Source: the human T2T-CHM13v2.0 reference genome, Homo sapiens
Strand: one strand, 5' to 3'
Length of the DNA: 64,000 nt
NCBI RefSeq assembly: GCF_009914755.1
Contig: NC_060931.1
The notes under the pieces are model-generated. The model did not search any database, was not told where the DNA came from, and saw only the letters and a program-made list of their open reading frames with translations. Every line of letters starts with the position of its first letter. The first letter of the stretch is position 1. A program made the translations under genes and the position numbers. Shown here piece after piece: positions 2,270 through 14,200 of the stretch.

Positions 2270-2738
2270 ATGTTTAGTAGTAGTTTAGGTGGTATTGGGA
2301 CTATCTAATCTTTAACATTTTGTGAAATTTTCTAGAGGAATCATCTGGGGTGGATGCTTTCTTTGTGAGGGCACTTTGAAAATGTCTCTGTTTCTTCTAA
2401 GGCATATGGGCTGTTTATATTTTTATTGCTACAAAGGTCACATAAAAATTATATTTTCCTAAAAAGTTATCCACATATATCTGGAAATATATATAGAAAG
2501 AGAGTTTTAATTTTCCTTTTGGCAACTTTAAAAGATATAGAAAAGTACAAAGAATAATATGACAAACACATATGTTCTCACCACCATAATTAGCAACTGC
2601 TAACAATTTTATATTTTCATTTTACACTTTAAAAATGTACACAGAGCATTGCACAGACCATAAGGGCAGAACTCAATAAATCATCTCAGCGTAAACACTC
2701 TTGTATAACCACCACCCAGATCAATAATTACAACATTA
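2270..2738 (-). mobile_element. L1ME-type fragments; the 3'UTR piece resumes at ~13049 after a 10-kb insertion
   Basis: ataaccaccacccagatcaataattacaacatta continues as aaacattactcaccatttc...ggtaactgctattctcacttct at 13041. Confidence 0.65.
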
Positions 2739-2740
2739 TA

Positions 2741-3124
2741 AGTTTTGGATTCAGTGGATTTGGAAGAGGAGGGAGCAGACAGAGAGCACCAAATGGGAGG
2801 GAATCGAATCTGGAAGGTCCCAAGTCTAGTGACATGGTGACATTGAAAAAAATTCTGTAAAGAAAGTTTCCCTCTCCACCACAAAAATGGCACCTCAGCT
2901 GTACTGGAATGGAGAGTGCTAGACTCTGAGGAGAACCCAGCAGCTCTCCTTGCCCCTGCCTAAAGGCTGACCAGACTGCATCAGTGAGGAAGTTACTTGT
3001 GATTTCATCTTATATACACAGGAGAGAAAGTGACAAAGGAAAAATTCTGATGGCAACTATATGATAGAAGCTATATAAAGGCAAGTGTCTGTATATTCTT
3101 TCAACTATATTTGAGCATACCCAG
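2741..3124 (+). other. Retrotransposed cellular 5'UTR fused to the L1 5' end; resembles GULP1 non-coding exons 1-2
   Basis: Non-L1 sequence inside the L1 insertion boundaries. CpG-decayed GC-rich block 2741-2988, then an AT-rich block ending ttcaactatatttgagcatacccag, which I recall as GULP1 5'UTR. Joined at AG| to L1 ATGG. The identity is recalled, not searched. Confidence 0.6.
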
Positions 3125-3204
3125 ATGGTGGGTTAGACACTTTTAGTGTGCCTCAGACATGTGGAAATAGCAAGATAGTGCATAAAGCTCAACATTTGAG
3201 CTTT

Positions 3205-5472
3205 TTATTTTTTGTGGGTACATAGTAGGTGTATATATATTGGGGGTACATGAGATATTTTGATACCGGCATAAAATGCAGAATAATCACATCAGGGTCA
3301 ATGGGGTATCCATCACCTCAAGCACTTATACTTTTTTGTGCTATAAAGAATCCAGTTATACTCTTTTAGTTATTTTTAAATGTACGATAAATTACTGTTG
3401 ACTGCAGTCACCCTGTTGTGCTATCAAATACTAGATCTTATTCATTCCAACGATATTCTTTTGCCTATTAACCATCCCCACTTACCCCAACCCCACCTTT
3501 CTCAGCCTCTAGTAACCATCATTCTACTCTCTATCTCCATCAATTCAATTGTTTGAATTTTGAGCTTCCACAAATAAATGAGGGCATGTGAAGTTTGCCT
3601 TTCTTTGCTTGGCTTATTTAACATAACATAATGTCTTCCATCCATGTTGCAAATAACAAAATCTCATTCCCTTTAATAGCTAAACAGTACTCCATTGTGT
3701 ATATGTACCACATTTTCTTTTTCCATTACTCTGTTTGGCTTTTTGTTTGTTTTTCAGACAGGATCTCACTCTGTCCCCTAGGCATGTTCATGGCTCACAG
3801 GAGCTTCAAACTTCCAGGCTCAAGCAATCCTCCTACATCAGCCTGCTGAGAAGCTAAAACCACAGACTCATGCCACCATGCCTGGCTAATTTTTTTAATT
3901 TTTAATTTTATTTTTAGAGATGGGGTCTCACTATGTTGCCCAGGCTAACTCCAAATACCTGGGCTCAAGCAATCTGCTCCCCTTGGCTTCCCAAAGTGCT
4001 GGGATTACAGAAGTGAGCCACTGTGCCTGGCCCATTTGTCTGTTGATGGACACTTAGGTTGTCTCCAAATCTTGGCTATTGTGAATAGTGCTGGAATTAA
4101 CATGGGAGTGCAGATATTTTTTAGATAGAAGATTTCCTTTCTTTTGGGTATATACCTAGGAGTGGGATTGCTGGATTGTATGGCAGCTCTGGGTCTCACC
4201 CAAAGCCTACTGTCATCACTGCCTGGCTACCACTTATGTTCACTCAAGGCCCAAGGGCTCTGCAGTCATCAGTGGCAAATCCAACCAAGCTTGTGTTCTT
4301 CCCCCTTCAGTGCAGTGAGTTGCTCTAGCCCCACTCAGGTTCAGAGATGCTGGTCTGGGAGCCAGGGCCTGGAGGGGGAAACCTTAAGAATCTAACTGGT
4401 GCTCTATTCTACTGTGGCTGAGCTAGCACCCAAGCTGCAAGACAAAGTATTTTTCCCTCTTTCCTCCCTTTTCCTCAAGCAGAGGAGTCTCTCCCCATGG
4501 CTACCACCACCCCAGGCTCACAGCAAGTACTGCCTGGCTACTGCTGATGTTCATTCAAGCCCCAAGGGCTCTTCAGTCTGCTTGTGGTGAATGCTGCCAG
4601 ACCTAGGTCTCTCCCTTCAGGGCAGTGGGCTCTGCTCTGGCCTAGGGCAAGTCCAGAAATGCCATCCAGGAGCCTAGGCCTAGAATTGAGAACCCCAGGA
4701 GCCAGAGGATTTGGGGTGCCCTACTCCACTGTGGCTGAATTTGTACCCCAGCTACAAGCAAAGTCCTCTTTACTTTCCCCTCTCCTCTATTCAAGCAGAG
4801 GGAAGGAGTCTCTCCCAGAGTTGTGAGCTAAGCTGCCCAGGGTTGGGAAAGGGGTGACAACAGTACTCCCTTGGCCACTCCAGCTGATATCTCACTAGGT
4901 TGTGTGCACCCAAATCCTCTGGCTTTGAGCCCAGCCCAACACAGCACCAACCAGGACTTAGCCAGGAATTGGAGTCCTCGTTGCCTAGACTGCCTTTGAA
5001 GTTTATTTAGGACCTCAGAGCACTTTAGCCCATGGTGGAAGGGCTTGCTGGAACTCGGGTTCTGACCACTAAAACAGGTGACTTGCCTCTGGGGTAAGGC
5101 AGATCTGAATGCTCCCTCGTGGGTGCTGGCTGAATTCTGCCCCATGTTGCTTTCCTCCGTGACAGAGAAATTTGAGTTGCAATGCAAAGTCCCACAGTCA
5201 CTGGGTTCTCCTTCCCCCAAGGGCACAAATTTTCTCTCCATACTATATAGCTGCTACCAGGTGATTAGGGAGGGGTGGATAGGCATTTCAAGAGTGTCTT
5301 TCCTACCCTCTCAGTGCATCTTTCCTTAATATGATGTTAAAACCAGGCACTGTGATTGCTCACCTGGTGTTTTGATTCTTATGAAGGTGCTTTTTTGTGT
5401 GCATAGCTGTTCAATTTGGTGTTCTTGTGGGAGGGATGATTGCTGGATGATTTGGTCATCTTGCTCCATCTA
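3205..5472 (-). mobile_element. Internally deleted L1MA (L1MA1-3-like): 3' end joined directly to the 5'UTR
   Basis: 3205-4187 is an antisense L1MA 3' end; 4188-5470 is an antisense L1M 5'UTR ending catcttgctccatc (= GATGGAGCAAGATG); TSD tgagcttt at 3197-3204 and 5492-5499. Confidence 0.8.
3736..4032 (-). mobile_element. AluJ
   Basis: Diverged dimer with J-type ggctcaagcaatcctcc; degenerate TSD cattactctgtt / catttgtctgtt. Confidence 0.9.
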
Positions 5473-6099
5473 CTCATTCCAAATCTCTCTGTGAGCTTTA
5501 ATTCAAGAAGGAATATGGGAATCCACCAGAATCATTAAGGACATCCCAGATCCCAGGGAGGAGTATGTGGGCAGTTAGCCCTGTGGTGGCATCTAGGTGA
5601 TAAAAGTGAGTGAAGCCTCAGTATGTGAGAGAGGCAGAGAGCCTCCCTCTGTGACTCACCATTCTATTGGAGATCCAAGCAACCCAGGCCTAGGGATAGC
5701 ACTTTGCTTCTCCCAAGCCCTTGAGGTAATTTGGGGAGAGTCTTGGAGATGCTGTGAGGGAAAGACACCGGGAAAAGCTGCAGGCATTTTCCCAGAACTG
5801 GGACCAAGAACATCATGCCAGTTTTAATCTGGGTGCATATAAAGTCAGTCATTCTTTGATGACCCAGAAGTGTGGCTCTGCAGGCATTTTATTCTCAAGC
5901 CAAAGACTAGAGGGCTTGCTCTTGAGGAGAGTAGGGACCTCCAAAGCCATAATTGTGGAAAGCACCTTAGCAGTATGGCTGGAATTGCACACTCTCCCTA
6001 ATTGCAAGCCTGGGACAGGAGGAGAGCTGCTACAGCTGTGGTTTCTTCTGGCTGAGGAGACTTGCAGCCGGGGCCAGCTTGACAACCTGGCACTGTTCT

Positions 6100-6970
6100 G
6101 CATGTGTCATTGCTGGGTGCCCCAGCCTGCTCCCCTGAAATTGTGGTGCAGGGGGGCCTCTCTGATCCACTCCTAGGCAGAACTCCAGGAATTTAGAGTA
6201 CATACTTTCCTGGACCAGAAGCCTCAGTCACCCCACCCTTTCTGTGAAGAGATCGGGGTAAAGCAGGCCCTCTCCACTCTATGCCTAGGCAGAACTCATG
6301 ACATTCAGAGCACCTGCTCACCCAGCACCAGTCACCCCACCCTTCCTGTGCAGACATTGGCATGTAGGGGGCACCTCTCAGCTGCACACCCAGGCAGATC
6401 TCCAGGCAGTAGGAGCACCTGCTCTCCTGGTTCAGCAGCCTGAGTCACCCACCCTTCCTGCACAACGAATATGGTGCAGCAGGGCCCTCTCCAGTCCACA
6501 TGCTGGTAGATCTCCAGTCATTTGGAGCACCTGCTTGCCCAGATTGGCATCCTGACTCACTCCAGCCTTCTTGTGCAGTGATCAGCATGCAAGGAGCCCT
6601 TCTCAATTGCACACTCAGGCAGATCTCTGTATAGTAGGAGCACCCACTTGCCTGGTCCAGCAGCCTAAGTCACCCCTACTTCCTGCACAAAGATCATGGT
6701 GCAGTAGGGCCCTCTCTGCGCCACATCCAGGCAGATCTCCAGGCAGTCAGAGCACTGAATAACCTTGATTAGCAGCCTGGGCTGCACCACCCTTCCTGTG
6801 TAGAGATTGTGGTGCAGTGGGTCCCTCGACAATCCGTGCCCAGGCTGATCTTTAGGATTCTGGAGCACCCACTTTCCTAGATTAGGAGTTTAGGTTGTAC
6901 CTCCTTCCTGTGTGGTGAACTTGGGGCCAAGGAGCTTTCCCAGCTCCATGCCAAGGCACACTTCTGGGTG
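6100..6970 (+). repeat. About 8 degenerate ~112-bp tandem units in the L1 5'UTR
   Basis: aggcagatctccagg-like core recurs near 6175, 6287, 6392, 6504, 6617, 6729, 6842, 6953. Confidence 0.8.
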
Positions 6971-8758
6971 CTTGGTGGCTATGCACTGAATTCTCCCTCA
7001 GAACTGGTGTTTGTGCCTGCCATCAAGGGACTTGTAGGTGGGCCTGCCCAGTCTGTCCTCAGCCATCTTTTCCCCTACCTTCCTGGGGCTGAGCAGGGAG
7101 CTCACACTACTGTGTACTCCACAGTTCAGTCCATTGCCTGAGGCAACAGAGAGCCTCTCCTGGTAAACCAAGATCAAGTATATACCCAGCCACATTGACT
7201 GCAGCCAGCTGTTACCTGTAAGAATCATCTACTGGCTTGTAGGTCAAACTGCACAGCTCAATATAAAATCTGCTGAAAGAAACACATAGGGCTATAGAAG
7301 TGAAGGCAAAAGACCTTGACCAACATTTTCTACATTCATATCCCCCAGGGAGAGGGGAAAAGGGAAAAGGAAAGAAGAAAACCCTCCACAATAATATAGG
7401 AAAGAAAGAAAAAGAAAATATCCTACCCACAAGAAAATAATTACAACAATTAGAAATGCCAGCATCTCCAGATGAGAAGAAATCAGCATAAAAATTCTGG
7501 CGCTATGAAATATATGAATATAGTTACAAGACCAAAGGATTACACTAGCTCTCCAGCAATGGTCCCTAACCAAAATAGAAACTTAGAAATGACAAATAAA
7601 AAATTCAAAACATGGATTGCAAAGAAGCTCAATGAGACCCGAGACCTGATTGAAAATCTACACAAAGAAACTTCTAAATGAATCCAGGAAATTAAGGAAG
7701 CAATAAACACCTTAAAAAGAAACCAACCAGAGCTTCTGGAATTGAAAAACTTGCATAAGAAATTTTAAAGCAAAATTAATAGCTTTATCAATAGACTAGA
7801 GCAAGCAGAAGAAAAAATTTCACTCCTTAAAGACTGGTCTTTTGAACTAACCAAGTCAGACAAAAATAAAAAGAAAGAATTAGGAAAAATGAAAAACGTC
7901 TTGAGAAATGTGGGATTATGTAAAGCAACAAAACCTACAAATTATTGACATTCCTGAGAGAGAAAGAGAAAAAATAAAACCTTGAAAACAAATTTAAGGG
8001 AATAATTCAAGAAAATTTCTCTAATCTTGCTCAAGAGGTAGACATCCAGATACCAGAAATCCAGAGAACACCTGCCAGATCTATACAAAATGAACATCTC
8101 CAAGGCATATAGTCACCAGAATGTCCAATGTCAACACTAAATAAAAATATCTTAAACGCAGCTGCAGAAAAAGGCCAGATCATGTACAAAGGGAGCCCCA
8201 TCAAGCTAACAGTGGACTTCTCAGCAGAAACCTTGCAAGCCAGGAGAGACTGGGGGCCCATTTTCAGCACTTTTAAAGAATGGGGATCCCAAGAATTTCA
8301 TATCCCACTGAAATAAGCTTCATAAGCAAAGGAGAAACAAAATCTTTTGCCAGACAAGCAAGTGCTAAGGAAATTTGTTACCAGTAGACTGGCCTTATAA
8401 GAGATCCTTAAGGTAGTACTAAATATGGAAACAAAAGCACAATATCTGCTACCACAAAAACACAATTAAGTACACAGCCCACAGACACTTTAAAGCAACC
8501 ACACAATAGAAATTACAAAACAACCAAGTAATAATTTCATGATAGGATCAAGACCTCACATTTCAATATTAGCCTTAAATGTAAGGCAAAAGATTGCACT
8601 TAAAGGCAAAGGGTTGCAAGTCAGACAAAAACAAGAGCCATTCATCTACTGTCTTTGAGAGACCCATCTCTCACACCCATAAGCTCAAAGTAAAGGGCTG
8701 GAGAAAGATGTAGCAAGCAAATGATAAACAAAAAAATATATAATGGGTCACTATTCTT

Positions 8759-9062
<304 letters not shown>

Positions 9063-11459
9063 AATGGGTCACTATTCTTATATCAGATGAAGCAGATTTT
9101 AAACCAATAACAGTAAATAGGACAAAGAAGGGCATTACATAATTAGAAAGGGTTCAATTCAACAAGAAGTCTTAACTATTCTAAATATATACATCCAACA
9201 TTAGAGCATGCAGATTCATAATATAACCACTTCTAGACCTATGAGAAGAGTTTTAAAAACCGCACAATAATAGCTGGAGATTTCAACACCCCATGAACAG
9301 TGTTAGACAGATCATTAAGGCAGAAAACAAATTCTGTACTTGAATTAGACACTTGACCAACCGGATCTAATAGCCATCTATAGAAAACACCATCAACCAC
9401 AGAATGTACATTCTTCTTGCCTGCACATGGAACATACTCCAAGATCAATAACATTCTCAGCCACAAAGCAAGTGTCAATAAATTTTTAAAAAATAGAACT
9501 CGTACCAACCATACTCTCAAACCAGAGTAGAGTAACAATAAAAATAGAAATCAATACTGAGATGATCTCCCAAAACCATACAATGACATGGAAATTAAAC
9601 AACTTGCTGCTGAATTACTTTGAGGTAAATAATGAAATTAAAGCAGAAATCAAAAGGTTCTTTGAAATAACTGAAAGGAGGGACACAGTGTACCAAAATC
9701 TCTGGGGTGCGTCAAAAGAAATGCTAGGAGGAAACTTTATAGCAATAAACACCTAGCTCAAAAAGTTAGGAAGAGCTCAAACAAATAATCTAATGTCACA
9801 TTTAGAAAAATCAGAAAAACAAGAACAAACTAACTTCAAAACTAGCAGAAGAAAATAAATAACTAAAATCAGAGCAGAACTGAATGAAACCGAGACCCCA
9901 AAATCCATACAAAGAATCCGTGAAACCAAAAGTTGGTTTTTTGAGAGGGTAAGCAAGATCCATAGACAACTAGCTAGATTAATAAAGAAAAAAGAGAGAA
10001 GATCCAAATTATCACAATCTGAAATGACAAAGGTGACATGACAACCAATGCCACAGAAATACAAAAGATTCTCAGAGACTATTTTGAACACCTCTATGTA
10101 TACAAACTAGAAAATCTAAAGGAAATAGATACATTCCTGGAAACGCAACCTCCGAAGATTGAATCAGGAAGAAATCAAAACCCTAAACAGATCAATGTCG
10201 AGTTCTGAAATTAAATCAGTAATAAAAAACTTAAACAAAAAAGCCTTGGACCAGATGGATTTACAGCCAAATTATATTAGACATACAAAGAAGAGCATAC
10301 AATCCTACTGAAGATATTTCAGAAAATTGAGGAAGAGGGACTCTTTCCTAACTCATTGTACAAAGCCTGCATTGCCCTGATACCAAAACCTGGCAAAGCC
10401 ACAACAAAAAAAAGATAGGCCAATATTCTTGATGAATATAGATGCAAAAAACCTCAAAAAAATGCTAGCAAACTGAATCCAGCAGCACATCGAAAAGTTA
10501 ATTCAGCATGATCAAATTGGCTTCATTCCAGAGATGCAAGGTTGATTCAATAAATGCAAATTAATAAATGTGATTTACCATGTAAACAAAATTAAAATTA
10601 AAATCCATATAGCCAGAGCAATCAGGCAAGAGAAAGACATGTAAGGTATCAAAATATGAAAAGAAGAAGTCAAACTATCTTTATTCACTGATTATACAAT
10701 TGTATACCTAGAAAACCCTAAAGACTCCAGCAAAAGGCTCCCAGAACTGATAAATAATTTTGGTAAAATTTCAGGATACAGTATCAATGTCCAAAAATCA
10801 GTAGCATTACTATACACCAATAACATTCAAGCTGAGAGCTAAATCAAGAATCAAGGACACAATCCCATTTACAGTAGCCACACACACACACAAACACACA
10901 CACACAATACCTAGGAATACATCTAATCAAGGAGGTGAAAGATTTCTGTAAGGATAACTATGAAACACTGCTGAAGGAAATCATAGATGACACAAAGAAA
11001 TGAAAAAACTTCCATGCTCATGGCTTGGAAGAATCAATACCATTAAAATGACCATACTGCCCAAAGCAATCTACAGATTCAATGCTATTCCTATCAAACT
11101 ATCAATGATGTTTTTCACAAAATTAGAAAAAACTATTCTAAAAATTATATGGAAATGAAAAAGAGCCCAAATAGCCAAAGCAACCGTAAGCAAAAAGAAC
11201 AAAGCTGGAGGCCTCACATTACCCATCTTCAAGCTATACTATAAGGCTACAGTAACCAAAACAGCATCGTACTAGTACAAACATAGACACAGGCCAATGA
11301 GACAGAATAGAGAATCCAGAAATAAAGTCACACACCTACTTCCACTGGATCTTTGACAGAGTCAACAAAAATAAGCAATGGTGAGAGGACCCTCTATTCA
11401 ATAATTGGTGCTGGAATAGCTGCCTAGCCATATACAGAATAATGAAACTGGGTCTCTAC

Positions 11460-11827
11460 TGATATGGTCAGGCTTTGTGTCCCCACCCAAATTCTCATCT
11501 TGAATTGTAACCCCAGGTGTTGAGGGAGAGACCTGCTGGGAGGTGACTGGATCATGAGGGTGGTTTCTCCCATGATATTCTTGTGATAGTGAGTGAGTTC
11601 TCACGTGATCTGATGGTTTTACAAGGGTCTCTTCTCCCTTCACTTCCTATACGTGCTCTCTCTTGCCTGATGCCATGTAAGACGTGCCTCTTCCCCTTCC
11701 ACCATAATTGTAAGTTTCCTGAGGCCTCCTCAGTCATACAGAACTGTGAATCAATTAAAACTCTTTTCTTCATAAATGATGCAGTCTCGGGAGGTATTTC
11801 ATAGCAGTGTGAGAAAGGACTAATACA
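11460..11827 (+). mobile_element. THE1-type (ERVL-MaLR) solo LTR inside L1 ORF2
   Basis: tgatatgg...tgtgtccccacccaaa start, ...ggactaataca end; the L1 reads through on both sides. Confidence 0.9.
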
Positions 11828-13048
11828 CCTGCCTTTCACCATATACAAAAATTAATTCAAGATGGATTAAAAATTTAAATATAAGATCTCAAACTATAAG
11901 AGTCCTAGAAGAAAACCTAGAAAACACCATTCTGGACATTGGCCATGGGAAATAATTTATGATTAAGTCCTCAAAAGCAATTGCAACAAAATCAAAAATT
12001 GACAAATGGTACCTAATTAAATTAAAGTTTCTGCACAACAACAGAAACTATCAACAGAGTAAACAAAATGGGAGAAAATATTTATAAACTATGTATCCAA
12101 CAAAGATCTAATATCCAGAGTCTACAAGGAACTTAAATAATTCAACAAACAAAAACCAAATAACCCCATTAAAAAGTGAACAAAAGACATTAGCAGATAC
12201 TTCTCAAACATAGGTATACACGCATCCAACAAACATATGAAAAATGCTCAACATAACTAATTATTAGAAAAATGAAAATCAAAACTATCTCACACCAATC
12301 AGAATGGCTATTATGAAAAAGTCAAAAAACAACCGATGCTGTTGAGGCTGCGGAGAAAAGGGAACACTTATACACTGCTGGTGTAAATGTAAATTAGTTT
12401 AGTTTTTGTGGAAAGCAGTATGGAGATTTCTTAAAGAGCTTAGAACTACCATTCGACCCAGAAATTCCATTACTGGGTATATACCCAAAGAATATACATT
12501 ATTCTACTAAAAACACATATGCACTCATAAGTTTATTGCAGCACTATTCACAGTAGCAAAGACATGGAAGCCATTTAGGTGCCCATCAATTGTTGATAGG
12601 ATAAAGAAAACCTGGTACATAAACATGATGGAATACTATGTAATCATAAAAGACAATAAAATCATATCCTTTGCAGCAACATGGATGAAGCTGGAGGCCA
12701 TTTTCCTAAGTGAATTAACAGAGGAACAGAAAACCAAATACCACATATTCTCATTTATAAGTGGAAACTAAACATTGGGTATTCATGGGCATAAAGATGG
12801 CAACAATAGACACTGGGAACAACTAGGGGGGAAGGGAGAGAGCGGCTAACCACTGGCTACTATGCTCATTACCTGGGTGATGGAATCATTTGTACCCCAA
12901 ACCTCAGCATCATGTAATATACCCATGTAACAAACCTGCACGTGTATCCCCTGAAACTAAAATAAAAGTTGGAATTCTAAAATATTAAAATTTTAAAAAA
13001 TTAAATACGTATTGTTTTTGGAAGAAAAAAGAAAGGAAGAAAACATTA

Positions 13049-14200
13049 CTCACCATTTCGGAAGCTGGCTTTTAATCACTAACTTTTTTCTTCTCCCAAA
13101 AGGTAACTGCTATTCTCACTTCTATCATCATAGGATAGATTTGCTTATTTCTTTTAACTTTATATAAAGTAATTATACATCATATATTACTTCGTGTCTT
13201 GTTTCTTTTGCTTGCTGTTTGCTATGTTAATCTATGTTGTCATAGATAGTGTATTTCATTTATTTGTATGGCTGTGTAGTAGTTCTTTCTATGGCTATGC
13301 CAAAGATCATTTAGCCTTTCTATGGTTTTCGGACATTTGGGTTATTTCCAGTTTGGAGCTATTACAAACTATTACAAATAATGCTACCGTGAATATTCTT
13401 GCATATGACTTTGGTGCCCAATTACCTACATTTCTGTTACGTATACATTTGGTAGGGAAATTGATGGGTCATAAGATAAACATAGTGAGTTTTAATAAAC
13501 AATGCCAGTTTTCCAAAGTGTTTGTATCAATTAACACTTTCATTGGTAGTGACAAGCATTCTTGTTTGCTTGTTCACCTATCTGGTCATGCGATGCTTAA
13601 CAATGGGGATACATTCTGAGAAATGCATTGTTAGGTGATTTTGTTATTGTGCAAACATCACGGAATGTACTTGCACAAATCTAGATAATATAGCCTACTA
13701 CACATCTAGGTTATATGGTACAGCCTACTGCTCCTAGGCTGCAAACCTGTGCAGCGTATTACTGTACTGAATACTGCAGGCAATTGCAAGACAATGTTAA
13801 GTATTTGTGTATCTAAACATAGAAGAGATATAGTAAAAATAGGGTGTTATAATCTGATGGAATCATCATTGTACATGCAAACATCAAAAGGCAGCACAGG
13901 ACTGCATTTGTTATTTTCAGTCTGTTTCAGCCATTCTGGTGGTAAGTAATGTTATCTTATTATGGCTTTACTTTGAAGACTACTGAATTGAACAGATTTT
14001 CGTGTTTAAGAGCATTTGGATATCCTAGTTGGGAAATGCTCATTTGAATCTTTTGACCATTTTTGTTGTTGTTGTTGTCTTTTCCTTATCAAAAATCTTT
14101 CTATATTGAACAAGAGCCTTTTATCTGTTGTATGTGTTGTAAATATCTTAACCCACTCTATGGTTTTCATTTTTACTCTCTTAGTGCTGCTACCTCTTGG
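13049..14200 (-). mobile_element. L1ME-type 3' region (continuation of the ~2640-2738 piece), interrupted by Tigger3a
   Basis: ggacatttgggttatttccagtttggagctattacaaa...gccagttttccaaagtg antisense L1M 3' motifs. Confidence 0.7.
13582..13905. mobile_element. Tigger3a/MER7-type TcMar MITE
   Basis: gtcatgcgatgcttaacaatggggatacattctgagaaatgc...gcctactacacatctaggttatatgg. Confidence 0.85.

What the first reader, a model, noticed from the sequence alone, without database searches (positions are those of the whole stretch)
2741..3200. Candidate chimeric LINE-1 that captured a host promoter and spliced 5'UTR (GULP1-like exons 1-2)
Seen: an L1ME is broken after 2738 and resumes at 13049 (shared aacatta), so everything between arrived as one insertion plus later nested elements. 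Yet recognisable L1 starts only at 3125. The ~380 bp before it are not L1-like: a purine/GC-rich block full of TG/CA (decayed CpG island), then an AT-rich block ending GAGCATACCCAG, fused to ATGGTGG. That is exactly where the L1 start (...CAAG|ATGGCGG) offers an AG acceptor. Recalled, unverified: both blocks resemble the GULP1 mRNA 5'UTR, with CATACCCAG at an exon end. Inference: a source L1 lying sense in a GULP1 intron was transcribed from the host promoter, spliced and retrotransposed. This parallels the MAST2 exon capture that created SVA_F1, but in an early-primate L1. If multi-copy, it is a host-promoter-driven L1 sub-lineage and a route to L1 5'UTR replacement. It may already be hidden inside a repeat-library 5'-end consensus.
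Basis: partly seen in the sequence, partly recalled or inferred. Interest (0 to 1): 0.88.

Follow-up and report, generated by a model that had tools for sequence, protein, structure and literature searches.

The report
GULP1 exons spliced onto old LINE-1
An ancient LINE-1 jumping gene on chromosome 7 carries, fused to its front end, the first two spliced exons of the GULP1 gene from chromosome 2; it is a real single-copy example of a host-exon capture that was first catalogued in print in 2026.

Summary
Window 2741-2988 matches the 5' part of a CpG-island exon at chr2:188,780,706-188,780,939. Window 2993-3124 matches an exon 91.6 kb downstream at chr2:188,872,559-188,872,685. Both matches lie on the + strand of the GULP1 locus. 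The second block ends exactly at a CAG|GTAAGA donor.

It abuts ATGG of a multi-copy L1 5' end. In 26 other genomic copies that ATGG follows a T-run, a C-run and AAG, which looks like a built-in 3' splice site. One AACATTA duplication (2732-2738 and 13042-13048) encloses the exon blocks, the near full-length L1 and its A-rich tail.

My reading is that a GULP1 exon1-exon2 transcript was spliced onto an L1 and retrotransposed in a single event. The exon-2 block occurs only twice in the genome (this copy and the gene), so there is no sub-lineage. Only transcribed CpG-island sequence was carried, not the upstream promoter, and it has lost its CpGs (22 in the gene, 1 here). I found no source L1 in the parts of GULP1 I could scan.

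The class is published: Law & Burns 2026 list 17 mRNA/lncRNA-L1 chimeras. This one is not in their Table S5. It is a new member of a known kind.

The parts
2732..2738 (+). 5' copy of the target-site duplication AACATTA, inside an old L1M-type repeat. With one mismatch it extends to 9 nt from 2730. The bases before it (..aatt|acaa) resemble an L1 endonuclease site.
   Evidence: sequence; the chrX copy of the flanking repeat spans the empty-site junction.
2739..2740 (+). Two extra bases (TA) between the TSD and the exon-1 block. They match neither the flank nor chr2.
2741..2988 (+). Retro-copied GULP1 exon 1. It equals chr2:188,780,706-188,780,939 and starts at the A of a CCAGTTT initiator-like motif. 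CpGs have decayed (22 in the gene, 1 here). It carries a 15-nt insertion and two small deletions.
   Evidence: 70.75% over 253 columns, E 2e-36; next best hit E 0.96; 178 of 230 aligned columns identical.
2989..2992 (+). GAAG. Four bases between the exon-1 and exon-2 blocks that present human splice sites do not explain.
2993..3124 (+). Retro-copied GULP1 exon 2. It equals chr2:188,872,559-188,872,685 and ends exactly at the chr2 donor CAG|GTAAGA.
   Evidence: 115 of 127 aligned columns identical; no CpG in either copy.
3125..3201 (+). First piece of the outer L1. It starts at ATGG, directly after the position of the family's terminal T-run/C-run/AAG, which is missing here.
3202..5488 (-). Later nested insertion: a minus-strand L1 with poly-T at 3202, a 3'-end segment and a 5'UTR-like segment. 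An antisense Alu sits at about 3740-4033. It is flanked by an imperfect ~8-nt duplication (ATTTGAGC / CTGTGAGC).
   Evidence: sequence; six reference copies jump from about 3193-3204 to about 5487.
5489..12969 (+). Rest of the outer L1. It has about 2 kb of 5'UTR with ~110-bp tandem repeats (about 6140-6900), ORF1 remnants (about 7450-8400) and ORF2 remnants (about 8500-12770). All frames are broken. Nested inserts lie at 8718-9090 (Alu-like) and about 11400-11810.
   Evidence: frames. (alignment to six copies). Pfam L1 ORF1 domains PF17490 (E 1e-6) and PF02994 (E 0.004, below its cut-off) at 8113-8313. ORF2 and 3' pieces hit other L1 copies. ORF2 frames and the Alu label were read by eye; no family search hit them.
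12970..13041 (+). A/T-rich degenerate tail after the L1 3' end. It has no other match in the genome, so no 3' transduction could be mapped.
13042..13048 (+). 3' copy of the target-site duplication AACATTA. The old repeat resumes at 13049.

Best explanation
This is one retrotransposition event of a chimeric RNA. Transcription began at the GULP1 start site on chromosome 2. Exon 1 was spliced to exon 2. The exon-2 donor was then spliced to the AG that sits behind the T-run/C-run at the extreme 5' end of an old primate L1, instead of to the next GULP1 exon. The L1 lay either in a GULP1 intron (cis) or on another read-through transcript (trans).

The chimeric RNA still encoded the L1 proteins. It was inserted by target-primed reverse transcription into an old L1M on chromosome 7. 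The insertion left a 7-9 bp duplication and an A-rich tail. By divergence and recalled neutral rates this happened very roughly 25-65 million years ago.

The new copy left no daughters. Its CpG-island part became methylated and decayed, and later elements nested in it.

Shown: the two-exon intron-less structure, the donor-exact junction, the acceptor-like L1 terminus, the single TSD pair, and single-copy status. Inferred: splicing as the joining step, cis versus trans, the date, and self-mobilisation.
For: -: block 1 matches chr2:188,780,706-188,780,940 (E 2e-36) in the only CpG island of the 200 kb searched. In chr2 it is followed by GAG|GTACGG.
- block 2 matches chr2:188,872,557-188,872,685 (117 of 134 columns). 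It is bounded by a pyrimidine tract plus AG and by CAG|GTAAGA. The match ends on the last exon base.
- the same strand carries a GULP1 PTB exon (46 of 47 residues identical to PDB 6itu).
- of 26 other copies of the L1 5' end, 21 have AG directly before ATGG. 18 have at least 11 of 14 pyrimidines at -17..-4, against 0 of 26 for a control tract 40 nt upstream. 19 have a T-run of 5 or more.
- one TSD pair encloses the exon part plus the L1. There is no poly(A) between them.
- the L1 runs from its 5' end to its 3' end and has ORF1 domains.
- CpG count is 22 in the gene copy and 1 here, which fixes the direction of copying.
- Law & Burns describe the same architecture in 17 human loci. Six end exactly at donors, and they favour splicing.
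- in their TPK1 row the L1 part also begins at ATGG. That comparison is my reading of their table, not their claim.
Against: - Four bases (GAAG, 2989-2992) lie at the exon1/exon2 junction. Present human splice sites do not predict them.
- No sense L1 with this 5' end was found in intron 1 or in the first 50 kb after exon 2.
- None of 113 family 5'-end motif hits lies in chr2:188.78-189.09 Mb. That motif search is insensitive: the window's own copy only just passes at 3 mismatches.
- The exon end ...CCCAG resembles the L1 terminus ...CCCAAG. The break could therefore lie up to 5 nt earlier and reflect microhomology. One of 26 ordinary copies (L003) also reads CCCAG|ATGG.
- No cross-species alignment was available to show that both parts arrived together.
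- Exon numbering and the annotated start site of GULP1 are recalled, not checked.
Confidence: 0.8

Rival explanations
1. Template switching during reverse transcription. The L1 reverse transcriptase reached the 5' end of an ordinary L1 RNA, jumped to a mature GULP1 mRNA at the CCCA(A)G microhomology, and copied it to its cap. No splicing between GULP1 and L1 was involved.
For: - The exon-2 end (CCCAG) and the L1 terminus (CCCAAG) share 5 of 6 bases.
- The L1 part is missing only its terminal T/C-run, as expected if the RNA started near there.
- No source L1 was found in GULP1.
- Chimeras made by template switching are known (recalled; mentioned in PMC13174262).
Against: - The chr2 match ends exactly on the last base before GTAAGA. 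That would be a coincidence in an mRNA several kb long.
- A switch primed on CCCAAG should leave CCCAAG, but the window reads CCCAG. This needs an extra 1-nt loss or a rare source variant (1 of 26 copies).
- Template-switch chimeras usually carry 5'-truncated L1s, and Law & Burns do not favour the mechanism when a splice junction is present.
Confidence: 0.1
2. Two separate events: a partial processed pseudogene of GULP1 (exons 1-2 only) inserted first, and an L1 landed immediately 3' of it later.
For: Nested and adjacent insertions are common in this region.
Against: - There is no poly(A) or A-rich stretch at 3100-3124, and no TSD around 2741-3124 alone.
- The only duplication found encloses both parts.
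- The exon part stops exactly at a donor, and the L1 lacks exactly its T/C-run.
Confidence: 0.03
3. The 384 bp are simply part of an L1 subfamily 5'UTR that is already in repeat libraries, and the likeness to GULP1 is chance or reflects an older shared repeat.
For: L1 5'UTRs differ greatly between subfamilies (PMC13174262).
Against: - Block 2 has only two places in the genome: this one and GULP1.
- Block 1 has none other than itself at that search's sensitivity.
- 26 of 26 other copies of this L1 5' end have unrelated sequence upstream of the T/C-run.
- The chr2 blocks are 91.6 kb apart and are bounded by splice sites.
Confidence: 0.01

Closest known systems
mRNA/lncRNA-LINE-1 '5' transduction' chimeras of Law & Burns 2026 (Cell Genomics, PMC13174262), e.g. 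MAP3K13-L1PA5, FHIT-L1PA4, CREM-L1PB1, PALLD, TPK1
   Same: The first exons of a gene lie in sense orientation, already spliced together, and end at a splice donor. They are fused to a near full-length L1. One TSD pair and a poly(A) tail enclose the whole. No source L1 was found in the gene, and the downstream intron region is long. I read sections 13, 14, 20, 22 and 23 and the whole of Table S5.
   Different: This locus and GULP1 are absent from their Table S5 and from the other three readable tables. Their PDF supplements could not be read. The L1 here belongs to an older family with a ~2 kb 5'UTR. Its own terminus carries a T/C-run plus AG, which gives an explicit acceptor for a junction within the first bases of the element. 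The authors report no L1 splice site for junctions of that kind.
RAP1GDS1-L1PA2 chimeras (same paper, section 14)
   Same: Host exons 1-2 are spliced towards an L1, and a host promoter drives the retrotransposed RNA.
   Different: RAP1GDS1 has a source element in intron 2, several daughter insertions and RNA reads. Here there is one copy, no source was found and there is no RNA evidence.
SVA_F1 (MAST2 exon 1 captured by an SVA; recalled, no paper seen here)
   Same: A CpG-island first exon of a host gene is spliced onto the 5' end of a retrotransposon and mobilised by L1 machinery.
   Different: SVA_F1 founded a multi-copy subfamily and the element is non-autonomous. Here an autonomous L1 made a single dead-end copy.
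Template-switch chimeras such as U6/L1 (recalled; mentioned in PMC13174262)
   Same: A cellular RNA lies 5' of L1 sequence inside one TSD pair.
   Different: Those join at RNA 3' ends or at arbitrary points, usually to truncated L1s. Here the join is at an exon donor and an acceptor-like AG, to a near full-length L1.
SpIREs, spliced integrated retrotransposed elements (Larson et al. 2018, PMC5860796; only the search listing and the start of the abstract were seen)
   Same: Splicing of L1-containing RNA is recorded in the genome by retrotransposition.
   Different: SpIREs use donor and acceptor sites inside the L1 and lose 5'UTR sequence. Here the donor is a host exon and only the terminal T/C-run is lost.

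Membership tests
Spliced host-exon/LINE-1 chimeric insertion (Law & Burns 2026 class) | Unique non-L1 sequence lies directly 5' of the L1, in sense orientation, and maps to the first exons of a gene with the intron removed. | tested here: met
   two blocks 91.6 kb apart on chr2, + strand; the locus is GULP1.
Spliced host-exon/LINE-1 chimeric insertion (Law & Burns 2026 class) | The exon-derived part ends exactly at a canonical splice donor of the gene. | tested here: met
   the match ends at CCCAG, and chr2 continues GTAAGA.
Spliced host-exon/LINE-1 chimeric insertion (Law & Burns 2026 class) | There is a splice-acceptor-like site in the L1 at the junction. | tested here: met
   21 of 26 copies have AG before ATGG. 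18 of 26 have at least 11 of 14 pyrimidines upstream, against 0 of 26 for the control tract. Actual use as an acceptor was not tested.
Spliced host-exon/LINE-1 chimeric insertion (Law & Burns 2026 class) | One TSD pair, an endonuclease-like target and a poly(A) tail enclose the exon part plus the L1. | tested here: met
   The TSD is AACATTA (7 nt; 9 nt with one mismatch), the tail at 12970-13041 is A-rich, and the target reads ..tt|acaa. The TSD is short and empty-site support rests on one other copy.
Spliced host-exon/LINE-1 chimeric insertion (Law & Burns 2026 class) | The L1 is near full-length and protein-coding at the time of insertion. | tested here: met
   the L1 runs from 5' end to 3' end and has ORF1 Pfam domains. 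ORF2 was read by eye and by hits to other L1 copies. All frames are now broken.
Spliced host-exon/LINE-1 chimeric insertion (Law & Burns 2026 class) | Both parts arrive at the same time in cross-species alignments. | not testable with these tools
   No other vertebrate genome is held.
Cis-spliced intronic source (RAP1GDS1-type) | A sense L1 of the same family lies in the intron after the last captured exon. | tested here: inconclusive
   none in intron 1 or in the first 50 kb after exon 2; none of 113 motif hits lies in the gene. The source may also have been lost.
Host-exon-driven retrotransposon sub-lineage (SVA_F1-type) | Several independent insertions share the same exon-element junction. 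| tested here: not met
   the exon-2 block has 2 places in the genome (itself and the gene); the junction motif matches only itself at 0-1 mismatch; the four places at 2 mismatches were not inspected, and none was a candidate.
Reverse-transcriptase template-switch chimera (U6/L1-type) | The junction is unrelated to splice sites, typically with a truncated L1. | tested here: not met
   the junction falls on a donor and on an AG, and the L1 lacks only its terminal T/C-run.

The most novel reading that the evidence does not exclude
The T-run/C-run/AAG at the very 5' end of this old L1 family is a working 3' splice site. It made the family prone to being spliced onto upstream host exons whenever it was read through. 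Under this reading the GULP1 chimera is one fossil of a recurrent process by which L1s try out host first exons as new 5' ends, and junctions 'within the first 10 bp' in younger L1s (such as the TPK1 case, which also starts at ATGG) use the homologous AAG|ATGG site.
Probability: 0.2. Interest if true: 0.6.

Novelty: new member of a known kind. Interest (0 to 1): 0.4.

Why it matters
This locus is a clean, datable fossil of an L1 that was transcribed from a host gene's start site and carried that gene's first exons to a new place. That route has been proposed for how L1 replaces its 5'UTR and escapes silencing.

The class is already described, so the locus mainly adds one apparently unlisted and older case. 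It also adds one mechanistic detail. The L1 family's own terminus looks like a 3' splice site. That would explain exon junctions at the very start of the element, and it argues that the spliced L1 RNA was a read-through transcript carrying upstream flank rather than an L1-promoter transcript.

The copy left no descendants and lost its CpGs. This shows that such captures usually fail.

Tried and rejected
- Self-comparison in the window found no second copy of 2741-3190.
- The whole-genome DNA search with block 1 found only itself. That search was too insensitive for the 71%-identical CpG-island exon. The exon was found only after I fetched 200 kb upstream and ran a local blastn.
- I searched for a source L1 with window L1 pieces against 200 kb upstream and 50 kb downstream of exon 2. 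Only antisense or older, 5'-less L1 fragments turned up. A 38-nt family motif gave no hit in GULP1. The remaining ~108 kb could not be fetched.
- I looked for a 3' transduction that might locate the source. The tail 12966-13041 matches only itself.
- The junction motif search gave 177 places at up to 3 mismatches, against 21 for the control. None except the window itself has 0-1 mismatch, and four have 2 mismatches. I did not inspect those places. None appeared as a candidate when the exon-2 block was searched.
- A Pfam scan of nine further frame fragments, including two across the exon-derived blocks, gave nothing.
- Khan et al. 2006 on L1 5'UTR turnover was not held under the id I recalled.
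- The subfamily could not be named because no repeat library is available. The L1 starts printed in Table S5 for CREM (L1PB1), ZNF681 and CNOT1 did not resemble this 5'UTR by eye.
- Paper searches for GULP1 with LINE-1 gave 8 papers, none relevant by title or abstract start. A search for GULP1 with retrocopy terms listed 10 of 429 papers, and none of the 10 holds GULP1. Neither gave a prior description of this locus.

Full report
**What is in the sequence**

An old L1M-type repeat runs up to 2738 and continues from 13049. AACATTA is present at 2732-2738 and again at 13042-13048.

Both flanks are repeats. The left flank matches one other place, on chrX. The right flank matches 11 other places at 70-84% identity. 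The chrX copy (L057) reads straight through...CCACCCAGGTCAAGGAATAGAATATTA is followed by sequence like the window's right flank, and the heptamer-equivalent occurs once. I joined the two window flanks inside a script as a hypothetical empty site. L057 aligned across that junction in one HSP (query 10-117, junction at 100/101, 71.6% of 109 columns). Two other copies aligned only to the right side. Everything from 2739 to 13041 therefore lies inside one short duplication. The support is one spanning copy plus the duplication itself.

**The 384 bp in question are two exon copies from the GULP1 locus**

- A search of the window's own genome with 2741-3190 scored 40 of 120 candidates. It found the window itself and one hit for query 251-384 at chr2:188,872,557-188,872,685 (+, 87%). 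The other 38 hits cover only query positions from about 380 to 450.
- The local alignment has 117 of 134 identical columns and stops at ...GAGCATACCCAG.
- In chr2 this stretch follows ...ttatatttttctttttag and is followed by gtaagaataaatg. That is a pyrimidine tract with AG before it and a consensus donor after it.
- The genome search with 2741-2995 found only itself. I then fetched the 200 kb upstream on chr2 and ran a sensitive blastn.
- Block 1 (query 1-249) aligned to chr2:188,780,706-188,780,940 at 70.75% over 253 columns, E 2e-36. The next best hit had E 0.96. The match lies inside the only CpG island in those 200 kb, at about 188,780,301-188,781,900.
- The chr2 sequence continues ...CAGTGAG|GTACGG after the match, so the block ends at a donor.
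- The match starts at the A of CCAGTTT, which fits the initiator pattern. That pattern is recalled, not tested.
- The two blocks are 91.6 kb apart on chr2 and adjacent in the window.

**The locus is GULP1**

A genome scan with Pfam PID (PF00640) gave a hit at chr2:189,030,011-189,030,157 on the + strand, E 7.8e-8. Its translation is 46 of 47 residues identical to PDB 6itu chain A, 'PTB domain-containing engulfment adapter protein 1', E 1.7e-28. The two blocks lie 249 kb and 157 kb upstream of that exon on the same strand. I checked only the splice sites, the CpG island and the gene identity.

**Direction of copying and age**

The gene's exon 1 has 22 CpGs and the window copy has 1. Of 52 mismatches in 230 aligned columns, 17 are simple CG>TG/CA changes at gene CpGs. 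Exon 2 has no CpG and differs at 12 of 127 columns.

The chr7 copy is therefore the methylated, decaying retrocopy. With recalled primate neutral rates, 9.4% divergence suggests very roughly 25-65 million years. This is an inference. The L1 start differs by 12-18% from 26 other copies.

**What follows at 3125 is the true 5' end of a multi-copy L1**

- Six copies with 1.5 kb of flank align to window ~3120-3204 and then jump to 5487 onward, where they continue through about 2 kb.
- The outer L1 is thus split by a nested insertion (about 3202-5488) that starts with poly-T and antisense L1 3'-end sequence.
- Downstream come ORF1 remnants. Pfam finds the L1 ORF1 dsRBD-like domain (E 1e-6) and the RBD-like domain (E 0.004, below its cut-off) at 8113-8313.
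- ORF2-like frames follow up to about 12770. I recognised them by eye, and their DNA hits other L1 fragments.
- An A/T-rich tail runs up to the second AACATTA.
- A 38-nt motif from the L1 start has 113 places in the genome at up to 3 mismatches, against 0 for the reversed control.

**The junction**

In 26 other copies the sequence upstream of ATGG is unrelated between copies, except for the last ~15-20 nt. Those read T-run, C-run, AAG. The counts are:

- 21 of 26 copies have AG directly before ATGG.
- 18 of 26 have at least 11 of 14 pyrimidines at -17..-4. A control tract 40 nt further upstream gives 0 of 26.
- 19 of 26 have a T-run of 5 or more.

The family therefore ends in something that looks like a 3' splice site. 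The window copy lacks exactly that T/C-run and carries the last bases of GULP1 exon 2 in its place. A donor-exact end on one side and an AG-exact start on the other is what splicing predicts.

Because the pyrimidine tract is at the very start of the element, a branch point would have to lie in upstream flank. I infer that the spliced L1 RNA was a read-through transcript, in cis from a GULP1 intron or in trans, and not an L1-promoter transcript.

**Points against, and the rivals**

- GAAG (2989-2992) sits between the exon-1 and exon-2 blocks and is unexplained. The gene may have lost 4 nt at the start of exon 2 in a way that keeps an AG, or the retrocopy may have gained 4 nt. The alignment has five other indels.
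- The exon end CCCAG resembles the L1's CCCAAG. One ordinary copy (L003) reads CCCAG|ATGG. A microhomology-guided template switch is therefore possible.
- That rival needs two things. The homology must sit at the exon's last base by chance, and one A must have been lost. I give it 0.1.
- Two separate insertions are unlikely. There is no poly(A) at 3100-3124, no TSD around the exon part alone, and the only duplication encloses both parts.
- A library 5'UTR is excluded by copy number. Block 2 occurs twice in the genome, here and in the gene.

**Sub-lineage, promoter and source**

- The exon-2 block search had only two candidates, itself and the gene. The junction motif has no other match at 0-1 mismatch. 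This is a single copy, not a lineage.
- The copy starts at the transcription start, so the upstream promoter was not carried. Only 234 nt of transcribed CpG island came along, and its CpG loss argues that it did not stay an active, unmethylated promoter.
- No sense L1 with this 5' end lies in the 91 kb of intron 1 or in the first 50 kb after exon 2. Only antisense or older 5'-less fragments are there.
- None of the 100 listed motif hits is in chr2:188.78-189.09 Mb. By the sort order, the 13 unlisted hits fall on later chromosomes.
- About 108 kb before the PTB exon could not be read.
- The tail gave no 3' transduction.

**Comparison with print**

Law & Burns (Cell Genomics 2026, PMC13174262; also a 2025 preprint) report 17 hg38 L1 insertions with mRNA or lncRNA sequence fused 5' of the L1. 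Most are in sense orientation, from first exons, and joined to near full-length L1s.

- Six end exactly at donors. Acceptors were found in some L1s, but none when the L1 part starts within the first 10 bp.
- 15 of the 17 gene loci hold no intronic L1, and the authors discuss trans-splicing.
- RAP1GDS1-L1PA2 has a source element and several daughters.
- They speculate that such chimeras drive 5'UTR replacement.

I read sections 13, 14, 20, 22 and 23.

Their Table S5, read whole, lists ZNF681, ENSG00000291032, SATB1-AS1, FHIT, CDC42, MAP3K13, RAP1GDS1 (twice), RPL21, PALLD, CREM, FHIP1A, ENSG00000257948, ANKAR, ENSG00000233928, TPK1 and CNOT1. GULP1 occurs in none of the four readable spreadsheets. 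No coordinate there begins with 9571-9574, which is where I place this locus in hg38 using a recalled offset. Three PDF supplements could not be read.

In the TPK1 row the L1 part begins at ATGG, the homologous position. That comparison is mine, not the authors'.

Eight papers hold both GULP1 and LINE-1, and none is relevant by title or abstract start.

**Verdict**

The event is a spliced host-exon/L1 chimera inserted once. It is a new, apparently unlisted and comparatively old member of a class now in print, and it left no progeny.

The one added point of interest is the acceptor-like terminus of this L1 family. It offers a concrete explanation for exon junctions at the very start of L1 and is open to a simple splicing assay.

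Noticed in passing
window 3202-5488 (minus strand): The nested element has an L1 3' end with poly-T at 3202. On the minus strand it has an L1-start-like motif at 5454-5467, followed by about 1.3 kb of 5'UTR-like sequence. Without its Alu (about 3740-4033) it is only about 2 kb long. It is therefore an L1 with both ends but no ORFs: an internal deletion, or possibly a spliced (SpIRE-like) L1. About 21 nt of unassigned sequence lie between its start and the duplicated target (ATTTGAGC / CTGTGAGC).
   Followed up: partly
window about 6140-6900: The outer L1's 5'UTR holds an array of ~110-bp tandem repeats. It appears as multiple offset alignments to six other copies and as repeated peptide strings in the frame list. 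Other copies also carry it, so it is a family feature with possibly variable unit number.
   Followed up: no
loci L003-L008 and L030-L049 (26 genomic copies of the L1 5' end): The family's 5' terminus is a T-run of variable length (5 to 16 or more), then 2-5 C, then AAG, then ATGG plus a decayed CG. L033 has a G-rich insert between the T-run and the start. L045 and L046 end in AA instead of AG.
   Followed up: yes
window 2843-2857: A 15-nt A-rich insertion in the exon-1 copy relative to the gene. It may be a later slippage or insertion in the retrocopy, or a deletion in the gene lineage.
   Followed up: no
window about 11400-11810: About 370 nt interrupt the ORF2 frame between two recognisable ORF2 stretches. 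A further nested repeat of unidentified family is likely.
   Followed up: no
chr2:188,878,654-188,883,448 (L051/L052): An antisense L1 (68-76% identical to the window's L1 body, ORF1 to 3' end) lies 6-11 kb after GULP1 exon 2. It is in the wrong orientation to be the source.
   Followed up: partly
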